Assembly: GCA_034423135.1 (NCBI GenBank)
Contig: DAOUJC010000004.1
Location: 65,738-129,737 of the forward strand
Direction: 5' to 3'
Origin: Dehalococcoidia bacterium
GTDB lineage: Bacteria > Chloroflexota > Dehalococcoidia > Lucifugimonadales > UBA2985
DNA: 64,000 nucleotides
In this document: positions 10,778 to 14,166 of the stretch, in pieces
How the letters are laid out: each line of letters opens with the position of its first letter
Position numbering within the stretch: the first letter of the stretch is position 1
The notes under the pieces: generated by a model
What the model was told of the DNA's origin: nothing
Databases searched by the model: none
The model's input: the letters and a program-made list of their open reading frames with translations, nothing else
Program-made: the position numbers and the translations under genes

Positions 10778-11809
10778 CTACCTCCTGACGGATGGGGATA
10801 AGGCCTCTTCCTTCACCACCACTTCGGCTATCTGTACGGCGTTCAGAGCGGCGCCCTTCCGCAGGTTGTCGGCCACGATCCACATGGCCAAGCCGCTGGG
10901 ATGGGACACGTCCTCCCTGATGCGGCCGACGAAGACGTCGTCGGTGCCCTCCGCGTAGAGGGGCAGCGGGTAGCGCTGCGAGCTTGGGTCGTCCTGCACG
11001 GCGACGCCGGGCGCGCCGGCCAGTATCTCGCGTGCCTCGCCTGCGGACATGGGGCGGCTAAGCTCCACGTTGACGGACTCGCCGTGGCTCACGTACACCG
11101 GAACGCGCACGCAGGTGGCGCACACCGGCATGTCCTGCTCGTGCATGATCTTGCGCGTCTCCTGGACCATCTTCCACTCCTCGGTGGTGTAGTCGTTGTC
11201 CAGGAAGCTCTCGACGAACGGCAGTGCGTTGAAGGCGATGGGGTGCGGGTATGCCTGCGGTGCAACCTCGCCGTCGCCCTTCACCGCGTGGTCGATCTGC
11301 CCGCGCAGCTCGTCGACGGCGGCGCTGCCTGTGCCCGACACGGCCTGATACGTGGAGACGATGATGCGCTGAATGGAGTTCACCCTGTGTATCGGGTTGA
11401 GCGCAACCACCATCTGAATGGTGGAGCAGTTGGGGTTTGCGATGATGCCGCGGTGCTCCTGCACGTCTTCCGGGTTGACCTCAGGCACAACCAACGGGAC
11501 CTGCGGGTCCATGCGGAAGGCGGAGCTGTTGTCGATGACGACTGCGCCGGCGCGGGCGGCCGCGGGGGAGAAGCGGCGGCTGATGTCGCCGCCGGCGGAG
11601 AACAGCGCAATGTCGATGCCCTCGAAAGAGTCCTCGGTGGTCTCCTCCACCTCAAGCTCTTGACCCATGAACGTGAGACGCTTACCGGCGGAGCGGTCAG
11701 AAGCGAACAGCTTCAGGGAGTCGATTGGGAATGCCCTCTGCTCAAGCACCCGCAGGAACTCGCCTCCAACCAGTCCGGTAGCGCCGACAATTGCAACACG
11801 AAAGCCCAT
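10778..11809 (-). CDS. asd: aspartate-semialdehyde dehydrogenase
   Basis: VAIVGATGLVGGEF Rossmann motif and active-site NPNCSTI. 343 aa. Confidence 0.95.
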   Translation of the reverse strand: MGFRVAIVGATGLVGGEFLRVLEQRAFPIDSLKLFASDRSAGKRLTFMGQELEVEETTEDSFEGIDIALFSAGGDISRRFSPAAARAGAVVIDNSSAFRMDPQVPLVVPEVNPEDVQEHRGIIANPNCSTIQMVVALNPIHRVNSIQRIIVSTYQAVSGTGSAAVDELRGQIDHAVKGDGEVAPQAYPHPIAFNALPFVESFLDNDYTTEEWKMVQETRKIMHEQDMPVCATCVRVPVYVSHGESVNVELSRPMSAGEAREILAGAPGVAVQDDPSSQRYPLPLYAEGTDDVFVGRIREDVSHPSGLAMWIVADNLRKGAALNAVQIAEVVVKEEALSPSVRR

Positions 11810-12145
11810 GTCTCCACCTGAGATGAAAGATTAGCATCCCCAATACTATACGCACTGAGGCGGAATGACAAGAGCGAAGCTCCACCATTCAGTCCTGCGT
11901 AAGCACGGAATGGATGATGGGATGACCGCGCATACGAGCGTTCGTCCACTCATTTCCTGAGACAGCCTCACCTACATTGGGTACAGTGCAAGCCAGGAGT
12001 GAGTAGGAGGGAGCCGCGTACCTCGGCTTGAAGCCGCTGCCATGAAAGCACTACAATCGTGCGGGCGTACACGTCCCACTAAGGATTCCTGCTCTGCGGC
12101 AAGTATTTCTCCCCGCAACAGTGAGATCAAGGGCTAAAGGAGCTC

Positions 12146-13183
12146 ATGCAACTCCGCAAACTGCGCAGAGGGCTGATCGAAGCATATCGAGGATCGGACG
12201 TGGCAGGTCGCGCACAACGCTTCGATGGATGGATCGACAGAGCGTCCGCGGGCGATGCCTCTGCGACGGGATATGACCACGCCGAGACCGTCACGGAATA
12301 CTACGACCTCTGCGGCGAGTTTATGGTGTTTGGCTGGAGTGAGTCCCTGCACTTCGCGCCGCTATCGCCGAAGGAGAGCCTGGAAGAGTCCCAGGTCCGC
12401 CATCAGCGACTGATGATCTCCAAGCTGAAGCTATGCGAAGGCATGTCGGTAGTCGACATCGGTTGCGGGATCGGCGGGCCGATGCGCCGCGTCGTCCGCG
12501 AGGCAGGCGTCAGGGTCGCCGGGGTCAACAGCAGCAGGATTCAGCTTGCCAGGGCCAGGTCGCTGAACGCTGAGGCGGGGCTTGACCACATGGTCGATTA
12601 CTTCGCGGGCAGCTTCATGGACATGAGCGCTTTTGTGGACGATACGTTTGACCGGGGATACGCTATCGAGTCAACCTGCCATGCGCCGGACAAGGAGGGT
12701 GCGTTCGCCGAGATATACCGCGTGCTGAAGCCCGGTGCTCTCCTCTGGGGGCAGGAGATGTGTTTGACGGACAGGTTCGATCCCGACGACGATCGGCACC
12801 TCGCGATCAAGCGTGAGCTGATGCACGGCATCGCGCTGAAGGACATCGCGACAACTCACGAGGTGGACCGGACGCTCGAACGGGTGGGATTCGAGGTCAT
12901 AGAGGGGATGGACCGGGCCGTTGGGAAGGACGATTCGATCACGCCGTGGTATCAGCCTATGGAGACCCTCAACAGAACACTAGGCAACGCCGTGTTCAGG
13001 AATTCACTGGGCCGTAGGGTGTTGATCTGGGGAACCAAGTTGGCTGAGGGTGTGGGCGTGTTCCCGAAGGGCTCGGCGGAGGTTGTCAAGCTGCTGCATC
13101 GGACGGCAAACGCCTATGTGGCGGGAGGCAAGACGGGAATCTTCACGCCATTGTACTGCTTCCTGGCTCGCAAGCCCCTTTAG
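12146..13183 (+). CDS. sterol C-24 methyltransferase family (ERG6/SMT-like) SAM-dependent methyltransferase
   Basis: AAAGGAG precedes the ATG. The protein is collinear with yeast ERG6 as I recall it. YYDLCGEFMVFGWSESLHF aligns with YYNVVTDFYEYGWGSSFHF. VVDIGCGIGGPMR aligns with VLDVGCGVGGPAR. YAIESTCHAPDKEGAFAEIYRVLKPG aligns with [26 protein letters not shown]. The C-terminus AGGKTGIFTPLYCFLARKP aligns with AGGKSKLFTPMMLFVARKP. Confidence 0.85.
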   Translation: MQLRKLRRGLIEAYRGSDVAGRAQRFDGWIDRASAGDASATGYDHAETVTEYYDLCGEFMVFGWSESLHFAPLSPKESLEESQVRHQRLMISKLKLCEGMSVVDIGCGIGGPMRRVVREAGVRVAGVNSSRIQLARARSLNAEAGLDHMVDYFAGSFMDMSAFVDDTFDRGYAIESTCHAPDKEGAFAEIYRVLKPGALLWGQEMCLTDRFDPDDDRHLAIKRELMHGIALKDIATTHEVDRTLERVGFEVIEGMDRAVGKDDSITPWYQPMETLNRTLGNAVFRNSLGRRVLIWGTKLAEGVGVFPKGSAEVVKLLHRTANAYVAGGKTGIFTPLYCFLARKPL

Positions 13184-13204
13184 GCGTCTCCCCGGGCGCG
13201 CCTG

Positions 13205-13350
13205 GATCGCGTCTTTCGTCGCAATGACGGCTAGGGTGTGGTGGTGTCATTTCGAGCGAGGCGAAGCCGAGCCGAGAAATCCAGGACCTGCGGCAGTTCA
13301 TGCCACTCTACTGGCGTGAAACCGCGAAATGCTCCGCTCGAAACGACAGT
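13205..13350. repeat. structured interspersed repeat, family 3
   Basis: GTCATTTCGAGCG (13246-13258) pairs with CGCTCGAAACGAC (13335-13347), 12 of 13 complementary. TCGTCGCAATGAC lies upstream. Spurious translations read HFERGEAEPRN / FVAMTA, another signature of small repeats. Confidence 0.55.
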
Positions 13351-13359
13351 GAAGGCCGC

Positions 13360-14166
13360 TTACAGCCCCATGAGCTTGTCCAGGCCCACGGTCAGCCCCT
13401 GTGTCTTCACGACCTCCCGAATGGCCAGCGTGACGCCCGGCATGTAGCACTCGCGGTTGATGGTGTCGTGGCGGAGGCTGAGGGTCTGCCCCTGCGTGCC
13501 CAGCAGCACCTCGTGGTGGGCCATCCTGCCGGGCATTCGCATGCTGTGGACGGATACGCCGTCCACGTCGCCGCCGCGCGTGCCCTCCACCGGCTCCCTC
13601 TCGGGCGCGGGCCTCGTGAACGGGCCCTCGCGGCCCTCGTGCAGGTTGCGCGCCAGCGCGATCGCCGTGCCGGACGGCGAGTCGATCTTGGCCTCGTGAT
13701 GGGCCTCCACGATGTCCACGTAGTCGAAGTAGCGTCCCAGCCCCTTGACCAGGTGCATGAGCAGCACGGCTCCGATGGCAAAGTTGGGCGCGAGAAACGC
13801 TCCGATGCCGTGCTCGCGGGCGAGGGTGTCCAGCTCGCGTACAGAGTCCTCGTTGTGGCCGGTGGTTCCGACGACCAGGTTGACGCCGTGCGCGGCCGCC
13901 ACCCGGCAGGCCGCCAGCGATGCCTCGGCGTTGGTGAAATCCACCATGACCTGCGGCCTGTGGGCGTCCACTATGGCGGCCAAGTCCGGCGAAACGGGAA
14001 TGCTGCCGGAGCCGTCCGGCAGCGGCATGTACTCCTCGCCGGCGGCCCGGTCAACGCCGGCAACCGGCTCAAGGTCCGGCTCGCGGCACACGGCGGCCAG
14101 TACCTCCCTGCCCATCTTTCCCATCACACCGTGTACAAGGACACTTATCGGCGCCATCTCCCGCAC
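13360..14166 (-). CDS. dapB: 4-hydroxy-tetrahydrodipicolinate reductase
   Basis: VLVHGVMGKMGREV NAD(P)-binding motif and EAHHEAKIDSPSGTA catalytic motif. Confidence 0.95.
   Translation of the reverse strand: MREMAPISVLVHGVMGKMGREVLAAVCREPDLEPVAGVDRAAGEEYMPLPDGSGSIPVSPDLAAIVDAHRPQVMVDFTNAEASLAACRVAAAHGVNLVVGTTGHNEDSVRELDTLAREHGIGAFLAPNFAIGAVLLMHLVKGLGRYFDYVDIVEAHHEAKIDSPSGTAIALARNLHEGREGPFTRPAPEREPVEGTRGGDVDGVSVHSMRMPGRMAHHEVLLGTQGQTLSLRHDTINRECYMPGVTLAIREVVKTQGLTVGLDKLMGL

What the first reader, a model, noticed from the sequence alone, without database searches (positions are those of the whole stretch)
12146..13183. Full-length ERG6/SMT-type sterol C-24 methyltransferase homolog in a bacterial lysine-biosynthesis neighbourhood
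The 345-aa protein is collinear with eukaryotic sterol 24-C-methyltransferases from the YEYGWG-type region (here FGWSESLHF) through the SAM motif. The similarity continues through the YAIE(A/S)TCHAP block to the diagnostic C-terminal AGGK..(I/L)FTP...(F/L)(V/L)ARKP end. Sterol methylation is rare in bacteria and bears on the interpretation of sterane biomarkers. No oxidosqualene cyclase, squalene monooxygenase or demethylase gene is visible anywhere in the window. The gene is wedged between asd-dapA and dapB, flanked by a 336-nt spacer and a repeat element, with slightly lower G+C than its neighbours. The substrate could be exogenous or host sterol, or a non-sterol lipid.
Basis: partly seen in the sequence, partly recalled or inferred. 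Interest (0 to 1): 0.65.

Follow-up and report, generated by a model that had tools for sequence, protein, structure and literature searches.

The report
Relocated sponge-symbiont sterol-methyltransferase-like gene
This is a real, intact ERG6/SMT-family methyltransferase gene, but it belongs to a divergent bacterial branch that normally sits in a sponge-symbiont lipid-tailoring and export gene module, has been moved out of that module in this genome, and sits in a bacterium that can make squalene but no sterols, so it does not by itself show bacterial sterol synthesis.

Summary
The 345-aa ORF at 12146-13183 (+) is real and carries Methyltransf_11 plus Sterol_MT_C domains. It falls inside the SMT radiation but in a separate, fully supported bacterial clade. 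That clade keeps all SAM-binding and C-terminal SMT residues but has a rewritten sterol-binding Region I (Y81M, F89L, T78G/S/N) and Y223Q. The window protein therefore fails 3 of the 25 residues invariant in every experimentally active SMT.

In 58 of 80 named relatives the gene sits beside an MMPL transporter that, where annotated, carries a sterol-sensing domain. A GPP34-P450 fusion and a KshA-like Rieske oxygenase are usually there too. This genome keeps those three genes on another contig, with the SMT slot closed to 11 bp. The SMT lies in a 1,480-bp segment inserted between asd and dapB, under purifying selection (dN/dS 0.17).

The genome has HpnCDE (squalene synthesis) but no cyclase and no squalene epoxidase. 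Of 35 carriers surveyed in the phylum, only one has an OSC-type cyclase. In Nitrospirales-type sponge symbionts, however, the same clade lies inside OSC-containing sterol clusters.

Best reading: a non-canonical SMT acting on host- or community-derived sterol-type lipid. Endogenous squalene is the main rival.

The parts
12146..13183 (+). SMT-family SAM-dependent C-methyltransferase, derived 'M81/L89/Q223' bacterial clade (345 aa)
   Evidence: ORF; Pfam Sterol_MT_C 58.5 bits and Methyltransf_11; clade with SH-aLRT 100; signature residues; dN/dS 0.17 against G005
11881..13360 (.). 1,480-bp inserted segment carrying the gene; it replaces 126 bp (G002/G003) or 23 bp (G004) between asd and dapB
   Evidence: Homology to the empty-site genomes stops at 11880 and resumes at 13361; only G000 and G005 share the insertion; lower G+C
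12028..12057 (+). Promoter-like site TTGAAG-18-TACAAT, inside the 133 nt upstream of the ATG that is conserved with the G001 copy
   Evidence: Consensus scan; the G001 nucleotide match starts at window 12013. This is a consensus match only, not shown to function.
12137..12142 (+). Shine-Dalgarno-like AAGGAG, 3 nt before the ATG
   Evidence: Read directly from the sequence
13245..13292 (.). Copy of a short multi-copy intergenic repeat at the 3' side of the inserted segment
   Evidence: Dozens of matches at 81-93% identity across G001-G005; sequence read
10778..11809 (-). asd (aspartate-semialdehyde dehydrogenase), left flank of the insertion site
   Evidence: NCBIfam NF011456 502.5 bits, cutoff 223
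13360..14166 (-). dapB (4-hydroxy-tetrahydrodipicolinate reductase), right flank of the insertion site
   Evidence: NCBIfam TIGR00036 205.3 bits, cutoff 122

Best explanation
The gene encodes a SAM-dependent olefin C-methyltransferase of the sterol methyltransferase (ERG6/SMT) family, from a distinct bacterial subfamily found in sponge symbionts. In most carriers this subfamily is one gene of a laterally spread module with an MMPL/RND transporter (with a sterol-sensing domain where annotated), a GPP34-cytochrome P450 fusion and a KshA-like Rieske oxygenase. In this Dehalococcoidia genome the other three genes remain together on another contig. The methyltransferase was moved, on a 1.48-kb segment that looks as if it carries its own promoter, into the asd-dapB spacer, where it has stayed under purifying selection. 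By homology (inferred), the enzyme transfers a methyl group from SAM onto an isolated C=C of a lipid, as SMTs do at the delta-24 side-chain bond, forming a carbocation that is resolved by deprotonation. The SAM site, H90, E195 and the C-terminal domain are kept. The pocket residues that contact the sterol side chain in published models (81, 249), together with 89 and 223, are replaced clade-wide, so the substrate or the position methylated should differ from classical C-24 methylation of desmosterol or 24-methylenecholesterol. Because the genome has no cyclase and no squalene epoxidase, the most likely substrate is a sterol-type lipid taken from the sponge host or community, possibly after oxidation by the module's P450 and Rieske enzymes, with the MMPL protein moving the lipid. 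Shown here: family membership, clade signature, module linkage, relocation, absence of sterol synthesis, purifying selection. Inferred: chemistry, substrate, host origin of the substrate.
For: Family: Sterol_MT_C 58.5 bits, inside the SMT radiation with eukaryotic SMTs. Clade: SH-aLRT 100 on a 0.7 stem. M81/L89/Q223 in 128 of 137 fetched orthologs, with 6 of the other 9 truncated at those sites, and Y81M 118/119, F89L 119/119, Y223Q 119/119 among database orthologs, while the SAM-site and C-terminal residues are kept. Module: MMPL within 10 kb in 58/80, GPP34-P450 in 56/80 and Rieske/KshA_C in 50/80 named genomes, with Pfam confirmation. Phyletic link: 9/9 SMT carriers have the MMPL gene (a fragment in G028) against 3/32 non-carriers. 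Own genome: Rieske, MMPL and P450 at C6:19913-25615, with 11 bp where the SMT sits elsewhere. Relocation. Selection: dN/dS 0.14-0.23. Sterol link: the same clade (72-73% identical, same signature) lies 4-9 kb from OSC-type cyclases in L150/L152 (Nitrospirales) and L157/L158. L158 reads ERG24 - P450 - squalene epoxidase/OSC fusion - canonical SMT - this clade - GPP34-P450. No hpn or SHC gene was found within 10 kb in any of the 137 loci. Sponge niche: the metagenome hits whose accession series Brown et al. list come from demosponge metagenomes (LXNJ, LXNI, JGIcombinedJ30088, Ga0209021). The GPP34-P450 fusion is reported only from sponge symbionts (PMC11706023). No de novo sterol.
Against: No assay exists for this clade. 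The preprint's rule (F89 and T78 invariant in all functional SMTs) means members were either never tested or were inactive on desmosterol and 24-methylenecholesterol. By synteny, the assayed 'A. aerophoba 10000835 2 of 2' gene corresponds to this clade. Sterol uptake by Dehalococcoidia is undocumented. All 9 carriers examined have HpnCDE and 20 of 35 have an SHC, so a non-sterol triterpenoid substrate is available in the cell. The partner enzymes score far below every equivalog cutoff (SdmA 28.7 bits against 600; HpnN 105.6 against 751.85; BstA 34 against 1400), so their 'steroid' flavour is only family-level.
Confidence: 0.5

Rival explanations
1. It is a triterpene methyltransferase that acts on the cell's own squalene, or another acyclic or hopanoid-type isoprenoid, in the way the SMT-like TMT-1/2/3 enzymes of Botryococcus braunii methylate squalene and botryococcene. 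The product would then be oxidised by the P450 and Rieske enzymes and exported by the MMPL protein.
For: The own genome encodes HpnC (337.9 bits, cutoff 250.45), HpnD (282.4, cutoff 278.6) and HpnE (417.2, cutoff 283.05) next to a polyprenyl synthase, but no cyclase, so squalene is made with no known downstream use. The distribution is nested: 9 SMT carriers within 12 MMPL carriers within 26 HpnD carriers among 41 relatives. Twenty of 35 carriers have an SHC and only one has an OSC. [quoted passage not shown]
Against: HpnCDE also occurs in 17 non-carriers, so squalene has another role. No hpn or SHC gene lies within 10 kb of the SMT in any of 137 loci, whereas OSC sterol clusters do in 4. Fifteen of 35 carriers lack any cyclase, which rules out hopanoids as the common substrate. 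A full-text search for 'methylated squalene' with 'bacteria' returned only Botryococcus-related papers and one isoprenoid-engineering review, none reporting a bacterial methylsqualene. No sequence-level link to the TMTs could be tested, because the primary paper is not held and no TMT appeared among the named representatives.
Confidence: 0.25
2. It is a classical ERG6-type sterol C-24 methyltransferase that converts delta-24 sterols such as zymosterol or desmosterol into 24-methyl sterols.
For: Sterol_MT_C and Methyltransf_11 are present. It is 37% identical to ERG6 over about 300 residues. H90, E195, the SAM motif, G217, W286 and the C-terminal residues are conserved. Canonical bacterial SMTs are proven active (PMC10070321).
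Against: The protein fails T78, G86 and F89 of the 25 residues invariant in all functional SMTs. Clade-wide, Y81M, F89L and Y223Q replace pocket aromatics. By the preprint's own statement, no functional SMT tested has these residues. Several genomes carry this clade together with a separate, fully canonical SMT paralog (G001, G004, G023, L125, L131, L134, L138, L158), which argues for different jobs. The genome has no OSC or squalene epoxidase.
Confidence: 0.12
3. It is a decaying or functionally irrelevant passenger: a gene fragment of the module that was displaced and is on its way to loss.
For: The gene is patchy within the genus (4 of 9 genomes) and absent from G002, G003 and G008, which keep the MMPL gene. 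Module decay is visible elsewhere: MMPL is split in G002, has an in-frame TGA in G035 and is a fragment in G028, and G030 holds an 88-aa SMT remnant.
Against: The ORF is intact and all catalytic and SAM residues are kept. dN/dS is 0.17 between the two genomes that share the insertion and 0.14-0.23 against more distant copies. A promoter-like site and a Shine-Dalgarno sequence are present. Identity stays at 70-77% across classes and phyla.
Confidence: 0.05

Closest known systems
Bacterial sterol methyltransferases of sponge-symbiont and environmental metagenomes (Brown, Olagunju, Giner & Welander 2023, PMC10070321; Brown & Welander 2025 preprint 10.64898/2025.12.19.695621)
   Same: Same protein family and domain pair (Methyltransf_11 + Sterol_MT_C) and the same habitat (hits in the LXNJ, LXNI, JGIcombinedJ30088 and Ga0209021 sponge metagenomes that they used). 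In Nitrospirales-type contigs this clade sits beside their kind of ERG24-CYP51-SE/OSC-SMT cluster.
   Different: Separate clade at about 35-37% identity to ERG6, against about 41-44% for the canonical bacterial type. It lacks T78 and F89 (and, in the window protein, G86) of their 25 'functional' residues. It is usually linked to MMPL/GPP34-P450/Rieske rather than to OSC. Here it sits in a genome with no sterol synthesis. No activity has been shown.
Yeast ERG6 / plant SMT1-SMT2 (sterol 24-C-methyltransferase, EC 2.1.1.41)
   Same: Collinear over about 300 residues. The SAM motif DxGxGxxGP, H90, E195, G217, W286 and the C-terminal G333/L341/G352/F357/P359 are conserved. The presumed olefin-methylation chemistry is the same.
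   Different: Region I reads FMVFGWSESLHF instead of FYEYGWGSSFHF; Y223 is Q and D249 is I. It is bacterial, with no N-terminal extension and no sterol pathway in the genome.
Botryococcus braunii triterpene methyltransferases TMT-1/2/3 (Niehaus et al. 2012, as summarised in PMC3533583)
   Same: SMT-family proteins with variant sterol-binding domains that act on a non-sterol triterpene. This is a precedent for a change of substrate within the family, and squalene is available in this genome.
   Different: Eukaryotic algal enzymes. The bacterial clade comes with an oxygenase and transporter module.
GPP34_L (GPP34 + cytochrome P450 fusion) of sponge symbionts (Ferreira et al. 2025, PMC11706023)
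   Same: The module partner found next to this SMT clade in 56 of 80 genomes, and present in this genome on C6, has exactly this architecture.
   Different: That paper proposes a role in evading phagocytosis and never mentions sterols or methyltransferases. The gene linkage seen here suggests lipid chemistry instead.
Cyclopropane fatty acid / mycolic acid methyltransferases (Pfam CMAS)
   Same: Mechanistic relatives: SAM-dependent methyl addition to an isolated lipid C=C through a carbocation. The CMAS profile hits at 59 bits.
   Different: They have no Sterol_MT_C domain. NCBIfam CFA and mycolic models score far below their cutoffs. The tree places the protein within the SMTs.

Membership tests
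Sterol methyltransferase family (Pfam architecture) | Methyltransf_11-type SAM domain followed by the Sterol_MT_C domain | tested here: met
   PF08241 60.4 bits and PF08498 58.5 bits (cutoff 21.7), residues 103-200 and 286-344
Sterol methyltransferase family (phylogeny) | Groups with eukaryotic and bacterial SMTs rather than other class I methyltransferases | tested here: met
   Lies inside the SMT radiation, which includes rice SMT1-like, Cladosporium Erg6, Rhodomonas and Mesostigma SMTs. It forms its own clade with SH-aLRT 100. Only one outgroup was used and the backbone is unresolved.
Functional C-24 sterol methyltransferases (Brown & Welander 2025 criterion) | All 25 residues invariant among assayed functional SMTs (Y74, T78, 84GWGxxFHF91, 125DxGxGxxGP133, G147, Q154, D189, E195, G217, G268, W286, G333, L341, G352, F357, P359) | tested here: not met
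   22 of 25 are present. T78 is G, G86 is S and F89 is L in the window protein. F89L is found in 119/119 orthologs and non-T78 in 117/119.
Functional C-24 sterol methyltransferases | Aromatic Region I and IV pocket residues Y/F81 and Y223 | tested here: not met
   M81 (118/119) and Q223 (119/119); M81/L89/Q223 in 128 of 137 further orthologs, 6 of the rest truncated there
Functional C-24 sterol methyltransferases | SAM-dependent methylation of delta-24(25) or delta-24(28) sterols in vitro | not testable with these tools
   Needs an enzyme assay. From the preprint's statement, no tested functional SMT has L89.
De novo bacterial sterol biosynthesis pathway | Oxidosqualene cyclase and squalene epoxidase in the same genome | tested here: not met
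   PF13243 and PF08491 are absent from G000. No cyclase occurs in any of the 25 genomes of the family. Only 1 of 35 carriers in the phylum has a DCTAE-type cyclase.
Sponge-symbiont MMPL / SMT / GPP34-P450 / Rieske module | Partner genes present in the same genome | tested here: met
   tblastn hits at C6:19913-20989 (Rieske, 58% identity), C6:21078-23540 (MMPL, 65%) and C6:23552-25564 (GPP34-P450, 63%)
Sponge-symbiont MMPL / SMT / GPP34-P450 / Rieske module | SMT physically adjacent to the partners | tested here: not met
   Here the SMT is on contig C4, between asd and dapB. The slot on C6 is 11 bp. Adjacency holds in 58/80 (MMPL) and 56/80 (P450) relatives.
Triterpene (squalene) methyltransferases, TMT-like | SMT-like protein with a variant sterol-binding domain, plus an available acyclic triterpene substrate | tested here: inconclusive
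   Variant Region I and HpnCDE over their cutoffs are compatible. However, no sequence relation to the TMTs could be tested and there is no hpn linkage in 137 loci.

The most novel reading that the evidence does not exclude
A sponge-symbiont bacterium that cannot make sterols uses a specialised, non-canonical SMT together with a GPP34-anchored P450, a KshA-like Rieske oxygenase and an SSD transporter to take up and re-tailor host sterols, or to make methylated squalene derivatives. Symbionts without any sterol pathway would then contribute to the unusual alkylated sterols of demosponges that are used as the oldest animal biomarkers. The GPP34-P450 'symbiosis factor' would be a lipid-tailoring enzyme rather than a phagocytosis modulator.
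Probability: 0.25. Interest if true: 0.8.

Novelty: new variant of a known kind. Interest (0 to 1): 0.5.

Why it matters
Side-chain-alkylated steranes are read as eukaryote and sponge biomarkers, and counts of 'SMT genes' in metagenomes are being used to argue for bacterial sources. This gene shows that a large share of bacterial 'SMT' hits in sponge microbiomes (relatives in 477 species-level genomes) belong to a separate clade. That clade has an altered substrate pocket, occurs mostly in genomes with no sterol pathway, and has probably never been shown active on standard sterols. Counting these genes as C-24 sterol methylases would overstate bacterial sterol alkylation. If they do act on host sterols, they would open a route by which non-sterol-producing symbionts shape sponge sterol profiles. 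The linkage also gives a testable biochemical context for the sponge-specific GPP34-P450 fusion.

Tried and rejected
2. Niehaus et al. 2012 (PMC3318757) is not held. Naming ten representatives with a variant Region I found fungal, amoebal and unnamed sequences but no Botryococcus TMT, so the TMT comparison stays at the level of a literature precedent.
3. The assayed contig JGIcombinedJ30088_10000835 was not returned by the metagenome scan; only _10057988 was. Its correspondence to this clade therefore rests on synteny with L158 and on the 35% identity to ERG6, not on sequence.
4. Rfam at a permissive E-value found nothing in the inserted segment, so there is no riboswitch or known RNA element.
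5. The idea of recent acquisition from a eukaryote was rejected: the clade is bacterial only and sits apart from the eukaryotic clades.
6. Any functional link to lysine biosynthesis was rejected: asd and dapB are directly adjacent in six same-genus genomes.
7. NCBIfam gave no family over its cutoff for the SMT or for the module partners.
8. A first dN/dS run used wrongly oriented loci and was redone.
9. Structure prediction was not run, because the tool returns no coordinates for pocket analysis and, according to the 2025 preprint, no experimental SMT structure has been reported.
Full report
OBSERVATION

The ORF at 12146..13183 (+) is real, 345 aa, and starts with ATG. Pfam finds a class I SAM methyltransferase domain (Methyltransf_11, 2.8e-16), the CMAS profile (5.8e-16) and Sterol_MT_C (7.2e-16; 58.5 bits against a cutoff of 21.7). 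No NCBIfam model reaches its cutoff. The closest solved structures are generic small-molecule methyltransferases such as MitM (5e-21). The neighbours are asd, dapA, dapB and PNPase, all over their equivalog cutoffs. G+C falls to 0.56-0.62 across the segment, against 0.65-0.70 on either side.

THE GENE IS ON AN INSERTED SEGMENT

In the same-genus genomes G002, G003, G004 and G006-G008, asd and dapB are separated by only 23-126 bp. Only G000 and G005 have DNA between them. Homology to the empty sites stops at window 11880 and resumes at 13361, so a 1,480-bp segment was inserted.

The segment carries a promoter-like site (TTGAAG-18-TACAAT, 12028-12057) inside the 133 nt upstream of the ATG that is also conserved with the G001 copy. 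It also carries AAGGAG 3 nt before the ATG, the gene itself, and a copy of a short repeat that is multi-copy in the genus. Rfam finds nothing in it.

G001 and G004 hold their copies at other, unrelated places. The lysine-pathway setting is thus only a landing site.

The gene is under purifying selection. dN/dS is 0.17 between the two genomes that share the insertion and 0.14-0.23 against more distant copies (one search had an orientation error and is superseded).

WHICH KIND OF SMT IT IS

The protein has 2,051 word-index hits, and the top 120 are 72-100% identical. It has 243 clusters at E <= 1e-30 in the 50%-identity library. In a tree of 104 SMT-family sequences plus one outgroup, the window protein and its orthologs form a clade with SH-aLRT 100 on a stem of 0.7. 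That clade lies inside a radiation containing rice cycloartenol-C24-MT-like, Cladosporium Erg6, Rhodomonas and Mesostigma SMTs.

Brown & Welander (preprint 10.64898/2025.12.19.695621) list 25 residues invariant in every SMT that was active in their assays.

- **Kept:** the window protein has 22 of the 25, including the whole SAM motif, H90, E195, G217, G268, W286 and the five C-terminal residues.
- **Changed in the window protein:** T78 is G, G86 is S and F89 is L.
- **Changed clade-wide, among 119 orthologs:** Y81M (118), F89L (119), non-T78 (117), E82V (97), Y223Q (119), D249I (119).
- **Further orthologs:** the M81/L89/Q223 signature recurs in 128 of 137 orthologs from named genomes and metagenomes; 6 of the other 9 are truncated at those sites.

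According to the preprint's models, residues 81 and 249 lie within 5 A of the docked sterol side chain. Since F89 and T78 are invariant in all their functional enzymes, no member of this clade can be among those enzymes.

A second, fully canonical SMT paralog, with all 25 residues and 40-45% identical to the window protein, coexists with this clade in G001, G004, G023 and other genomes. It falls in a clade with a protein named 'sterol methyltransferase [Candidatus Poriferisocius sp.]' and many Acidimicrobiia MAG proteins. G000 has no such paralog.

THE MODULE

In G013, G023 and G037 the ortholog lies directly after an ~826-aa MMPL transporter with a sterol-sensing domain (MMPL 1.4e-43, Sterol-sensing 6.9e-13, Patched 1.4e-8). 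The G035 locus holds the same MMPL and P450 neighbours around the SMT. Next to it come a GPP34+P450 fusion and a Rieske+KshA_C oxygenase. Often there is also an FAD amine-oxidase-like protein and an LppX-like lipoprotein with an MFS transporter.

The partners' nearest solved or curated relatives are only distant:

- The P450's best PDB hits are taxadiene 5-hydroxylase and CYP51.
- The Rieske protein's best PDB hit is KshA.
- The MMPL protein matches the HAE3 and HpnN-like models.
- All NCBIfam scores fall well below their cutoffs.

Across 80 named species-level genomes, within 10 kb of the SMT:

- MMPL in 58
- GPP34-P450 in 56
- Rieske oxygenase in 50
- the FAD protein in 38

The carriers are labelled Dehalococcoidia/Chloroflexota, Acidimicrobiia, Alphaproteobacteria, Nitrospirales and Dadabacteria.

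Among 41 relatives, all 9 SMT carriers have the MMPL gene (a fragment in G028), against 3 of 32 non-carriers.

The window's own genome has the Rieske, MMPL and GPP34-P450 genes at C6:19913-25615. The MMPL and P450 genes are convergent and essentially abut at the exact place where the SMT sits in G013, G023 and G037. The window's SMT is therefore a displaced member of this module.

THE NICHE

The 57 hits in the JGI metagenome collection fall into a few accession series. Brown et al.'s Supplementary Table 4 assigns LXNJ01 to Petrosia ficiformis, LXNI01 to Sarcotragus foetidus, and JGIcombinedJ30088 and Ga0209021 to Aplysina aerophoba. I could not source the remaining prefixes (MKWU01 and the other Ga0209... 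series).

Some carrier MAG names (APA_, SB066x_) match sponge MAG sets that Ferreira et al. tie to A. aerophoba and Ircinia ramosa. I could not source the RHO_ and COS_ prefixes from held text. G004, from the window's own genus, is 'RHO1_bin_9'.

Ferreira et al. 2025 (PMC11706023) report the GPP34+P450 fusion only from sponge symbionts, and their paper never mentions sterols. Kelly et al. 2022 (PMC9531527) had already noted enrichment of SMT1/ERG6-annotated genes in Ircinia MAGs.

WHAT SUBSTRATE

The genome has no cyclase domain and no squalene epoxidase, and none of the 25 genomes of its family has a cyclase. It does encode HpnC, HpnD and HpnE, all over their equivalog cutoffs, next to a polyprenyl synthase at C17:3136-7428. 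So it should make squalene but neither hopanoids nor sterols.

I classified the cyclases by their catalytic motifs, using established knowledge that DxDD marks squalene-hopene cyclases and DCTAE marks oxidosqualene cyclases. Of the 35 carriers surveyed (9 in the order, 26 elsewhere in the phylum):

- 20 have a DxDD-type cyclase
- 1 (G388) has a DCTAE-type cyclase as well
- 15 have no cyclase

This argues against endogenous sterol as the usual substrate and keeps squalene or another triterpenoid in play. There is a precedent: the Botryococcus SMT-like enzymes with variant sterol-binding domains methylate squalene or botryococcene (PMC3533583).

Physical linkage points the other way. No hpn or SHC gene lies within 10 kb of the SMT in any of the 137 loci. 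In contrast, four loci place the same clade (72-73% identical, same signature) 4-9 kb from an OSC-type cyclase: L150 and L152 (Nitrospirales), and L157 and L158.

L158 (Ga0209021_1000731) reads ERG24 - P450 - squalene epoxidase/OSC fusion (1,220 aa) - canonical SMT - this clade - GPP34-P450. That is the gene order of the A. aerophoba cluster in Brown et al.'s Supplementary Data 1, where genes 14, 13, 12 and 11 are followed by gene 9. There the two SMTs are 42.4% and 35.2% identical to ERG6. Those values match what I measured: 41% for the paralog type and 35-37% for the window type.

Gene 9 is their assayed '2 of 2' enzyme. The held text does not say whether it was active. If it carries L89, it cannot be among their functional set.

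VERDICT

The finding is a genuine SMT-family gene, but it is neither an ERG6-type enzyme nor evidence for bacterial sterol synthesis. It is a relocated member of a laterally spread sponge-symbiont lipid-tailoring and export module, and it has a remodelled substrate pocket.

I put the options as follows:

- About 0.5: it methylates a host- or community-derived sterol-type lipid, probably not the standard assay substrates.
- About 0.25: it acts on endogenous squalene or another non-sterol triterpenoid.
- About 0.12: it carries out classical C-24 methylation.
- About 0.05: it is a decaying passenger.

Earlier notes from this scan describe the same module in other genomes. I treated them as leads and re-derived the linkage independently.

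What is specific to this window:

- the displacement of the SMT from the module
- the residue-level failure of the 'functional SMT' test
- the pairing of HpnCDE with no cyclase
- the survey showing OSC in only 1 of 35 carriers

CAVEATS

- The genomes are MAGs (96% complete here), so an absence in a single genome is not proof; the family-wide absence is stronger.
- The tree backbone is unresolved and there is a single outgroup.
- ERG6 was recalled from memory, though checked at 31 positions.
- The promoter and Shine-Dalgarno calls are consensus matches only.
- No biochemical data exist for this clade.

Noticed in passing
own genome, contig C17:3136-7428 (outside the window): A polyprenyl synthase followed by HpnC, HpnD and HpnE, all over their NCBIfam cutoffs, in a genome and a whole family (25 genomes) with no squalene-hopene or oxidosqualene cyclase. 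Squalene appears to be made with no known downstream enzyme.
   Followed up: partly
L032:15924-16949 (-) (G023) and L036:8967-9992 (+) (G001): The canonical SMT paralogs carry all 25 'functional' residues plus G249. The G023 copy also has F81 and F83, the combination Brown & Welander associate with 24-isopropyl sterol production. Yet these genomes have no cyclase. In G023 the paralog sits beside LppX-like, MFS and FAD amine-oxidase genes.
   Followed up: partly
window 13245-13292 (and about 13205-13350): A short repeat at the 3' side of the inserted segment recurs dozens of times at 81-93% identity in genomes of the same genus, sometimes in tandem clusters (for example G002:C1:475817-477079). 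It looks like a REP/MITE-like element.
   Followed up: partly
G002:C1:1510183-1512650; G035:C1:2041125-2043596; G028:C1:1801435-1802148; G030:C1:1389570-1389833: Signs of module decay in relatives. MMPL is split into two frames in G002, has an in-frame TGA in G035 and is reduced to a 238-aa fragment next to the SMT in G028. G030 holds an 88-aa SMT remnant.
   Followed up: no
L158:2438-6100 (+) (Ga0209021_1000731): A single 1,220-aa ORF fuses squalene epoxidase (SE, FAD_binding_3) with both cyclase domains. This agrees with Brown et al. listing one gene ID for both ERG1 and ERG7. ATP-citrate lyase and aconitase genes lie downstream, which from my own knowledge of the reductive TCA cycle suggests a Nitrospirota-like host.
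   Followed up: partly
L036:10725-12425 (+) and L036:14928-15982 (G001): Near the G001 paralog lies a 566-aa leucine-rich-repeat protein, a eukaryote-like protein type, and three tandem copies of a small ORF starting MDARLRGHGGDGLPFD.
   Followed up: no
L048/L049:11140-12821 (Dadabacteria MAG, GCA_009837925.1): In the Dadabacteria version of the module, the SMT is followed by a FA_hydroxylase-family gene and a 3-beta-HSD/epimerase gene. From my own knowledge these are the families of eukaryotic ERG25 and ERG26. There is no GPP34-P450 within 10 kb.
   Followed up: no
G388:C4:453941-454927 (L072): This is the only Chloroflexota carrier in the sample with an OSC-type (VSDCTAE) cyclase. It lies in a 1,277-aa open frame and so may also be a fusion. 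The genome additionally has an SHC.
   Followed up: no
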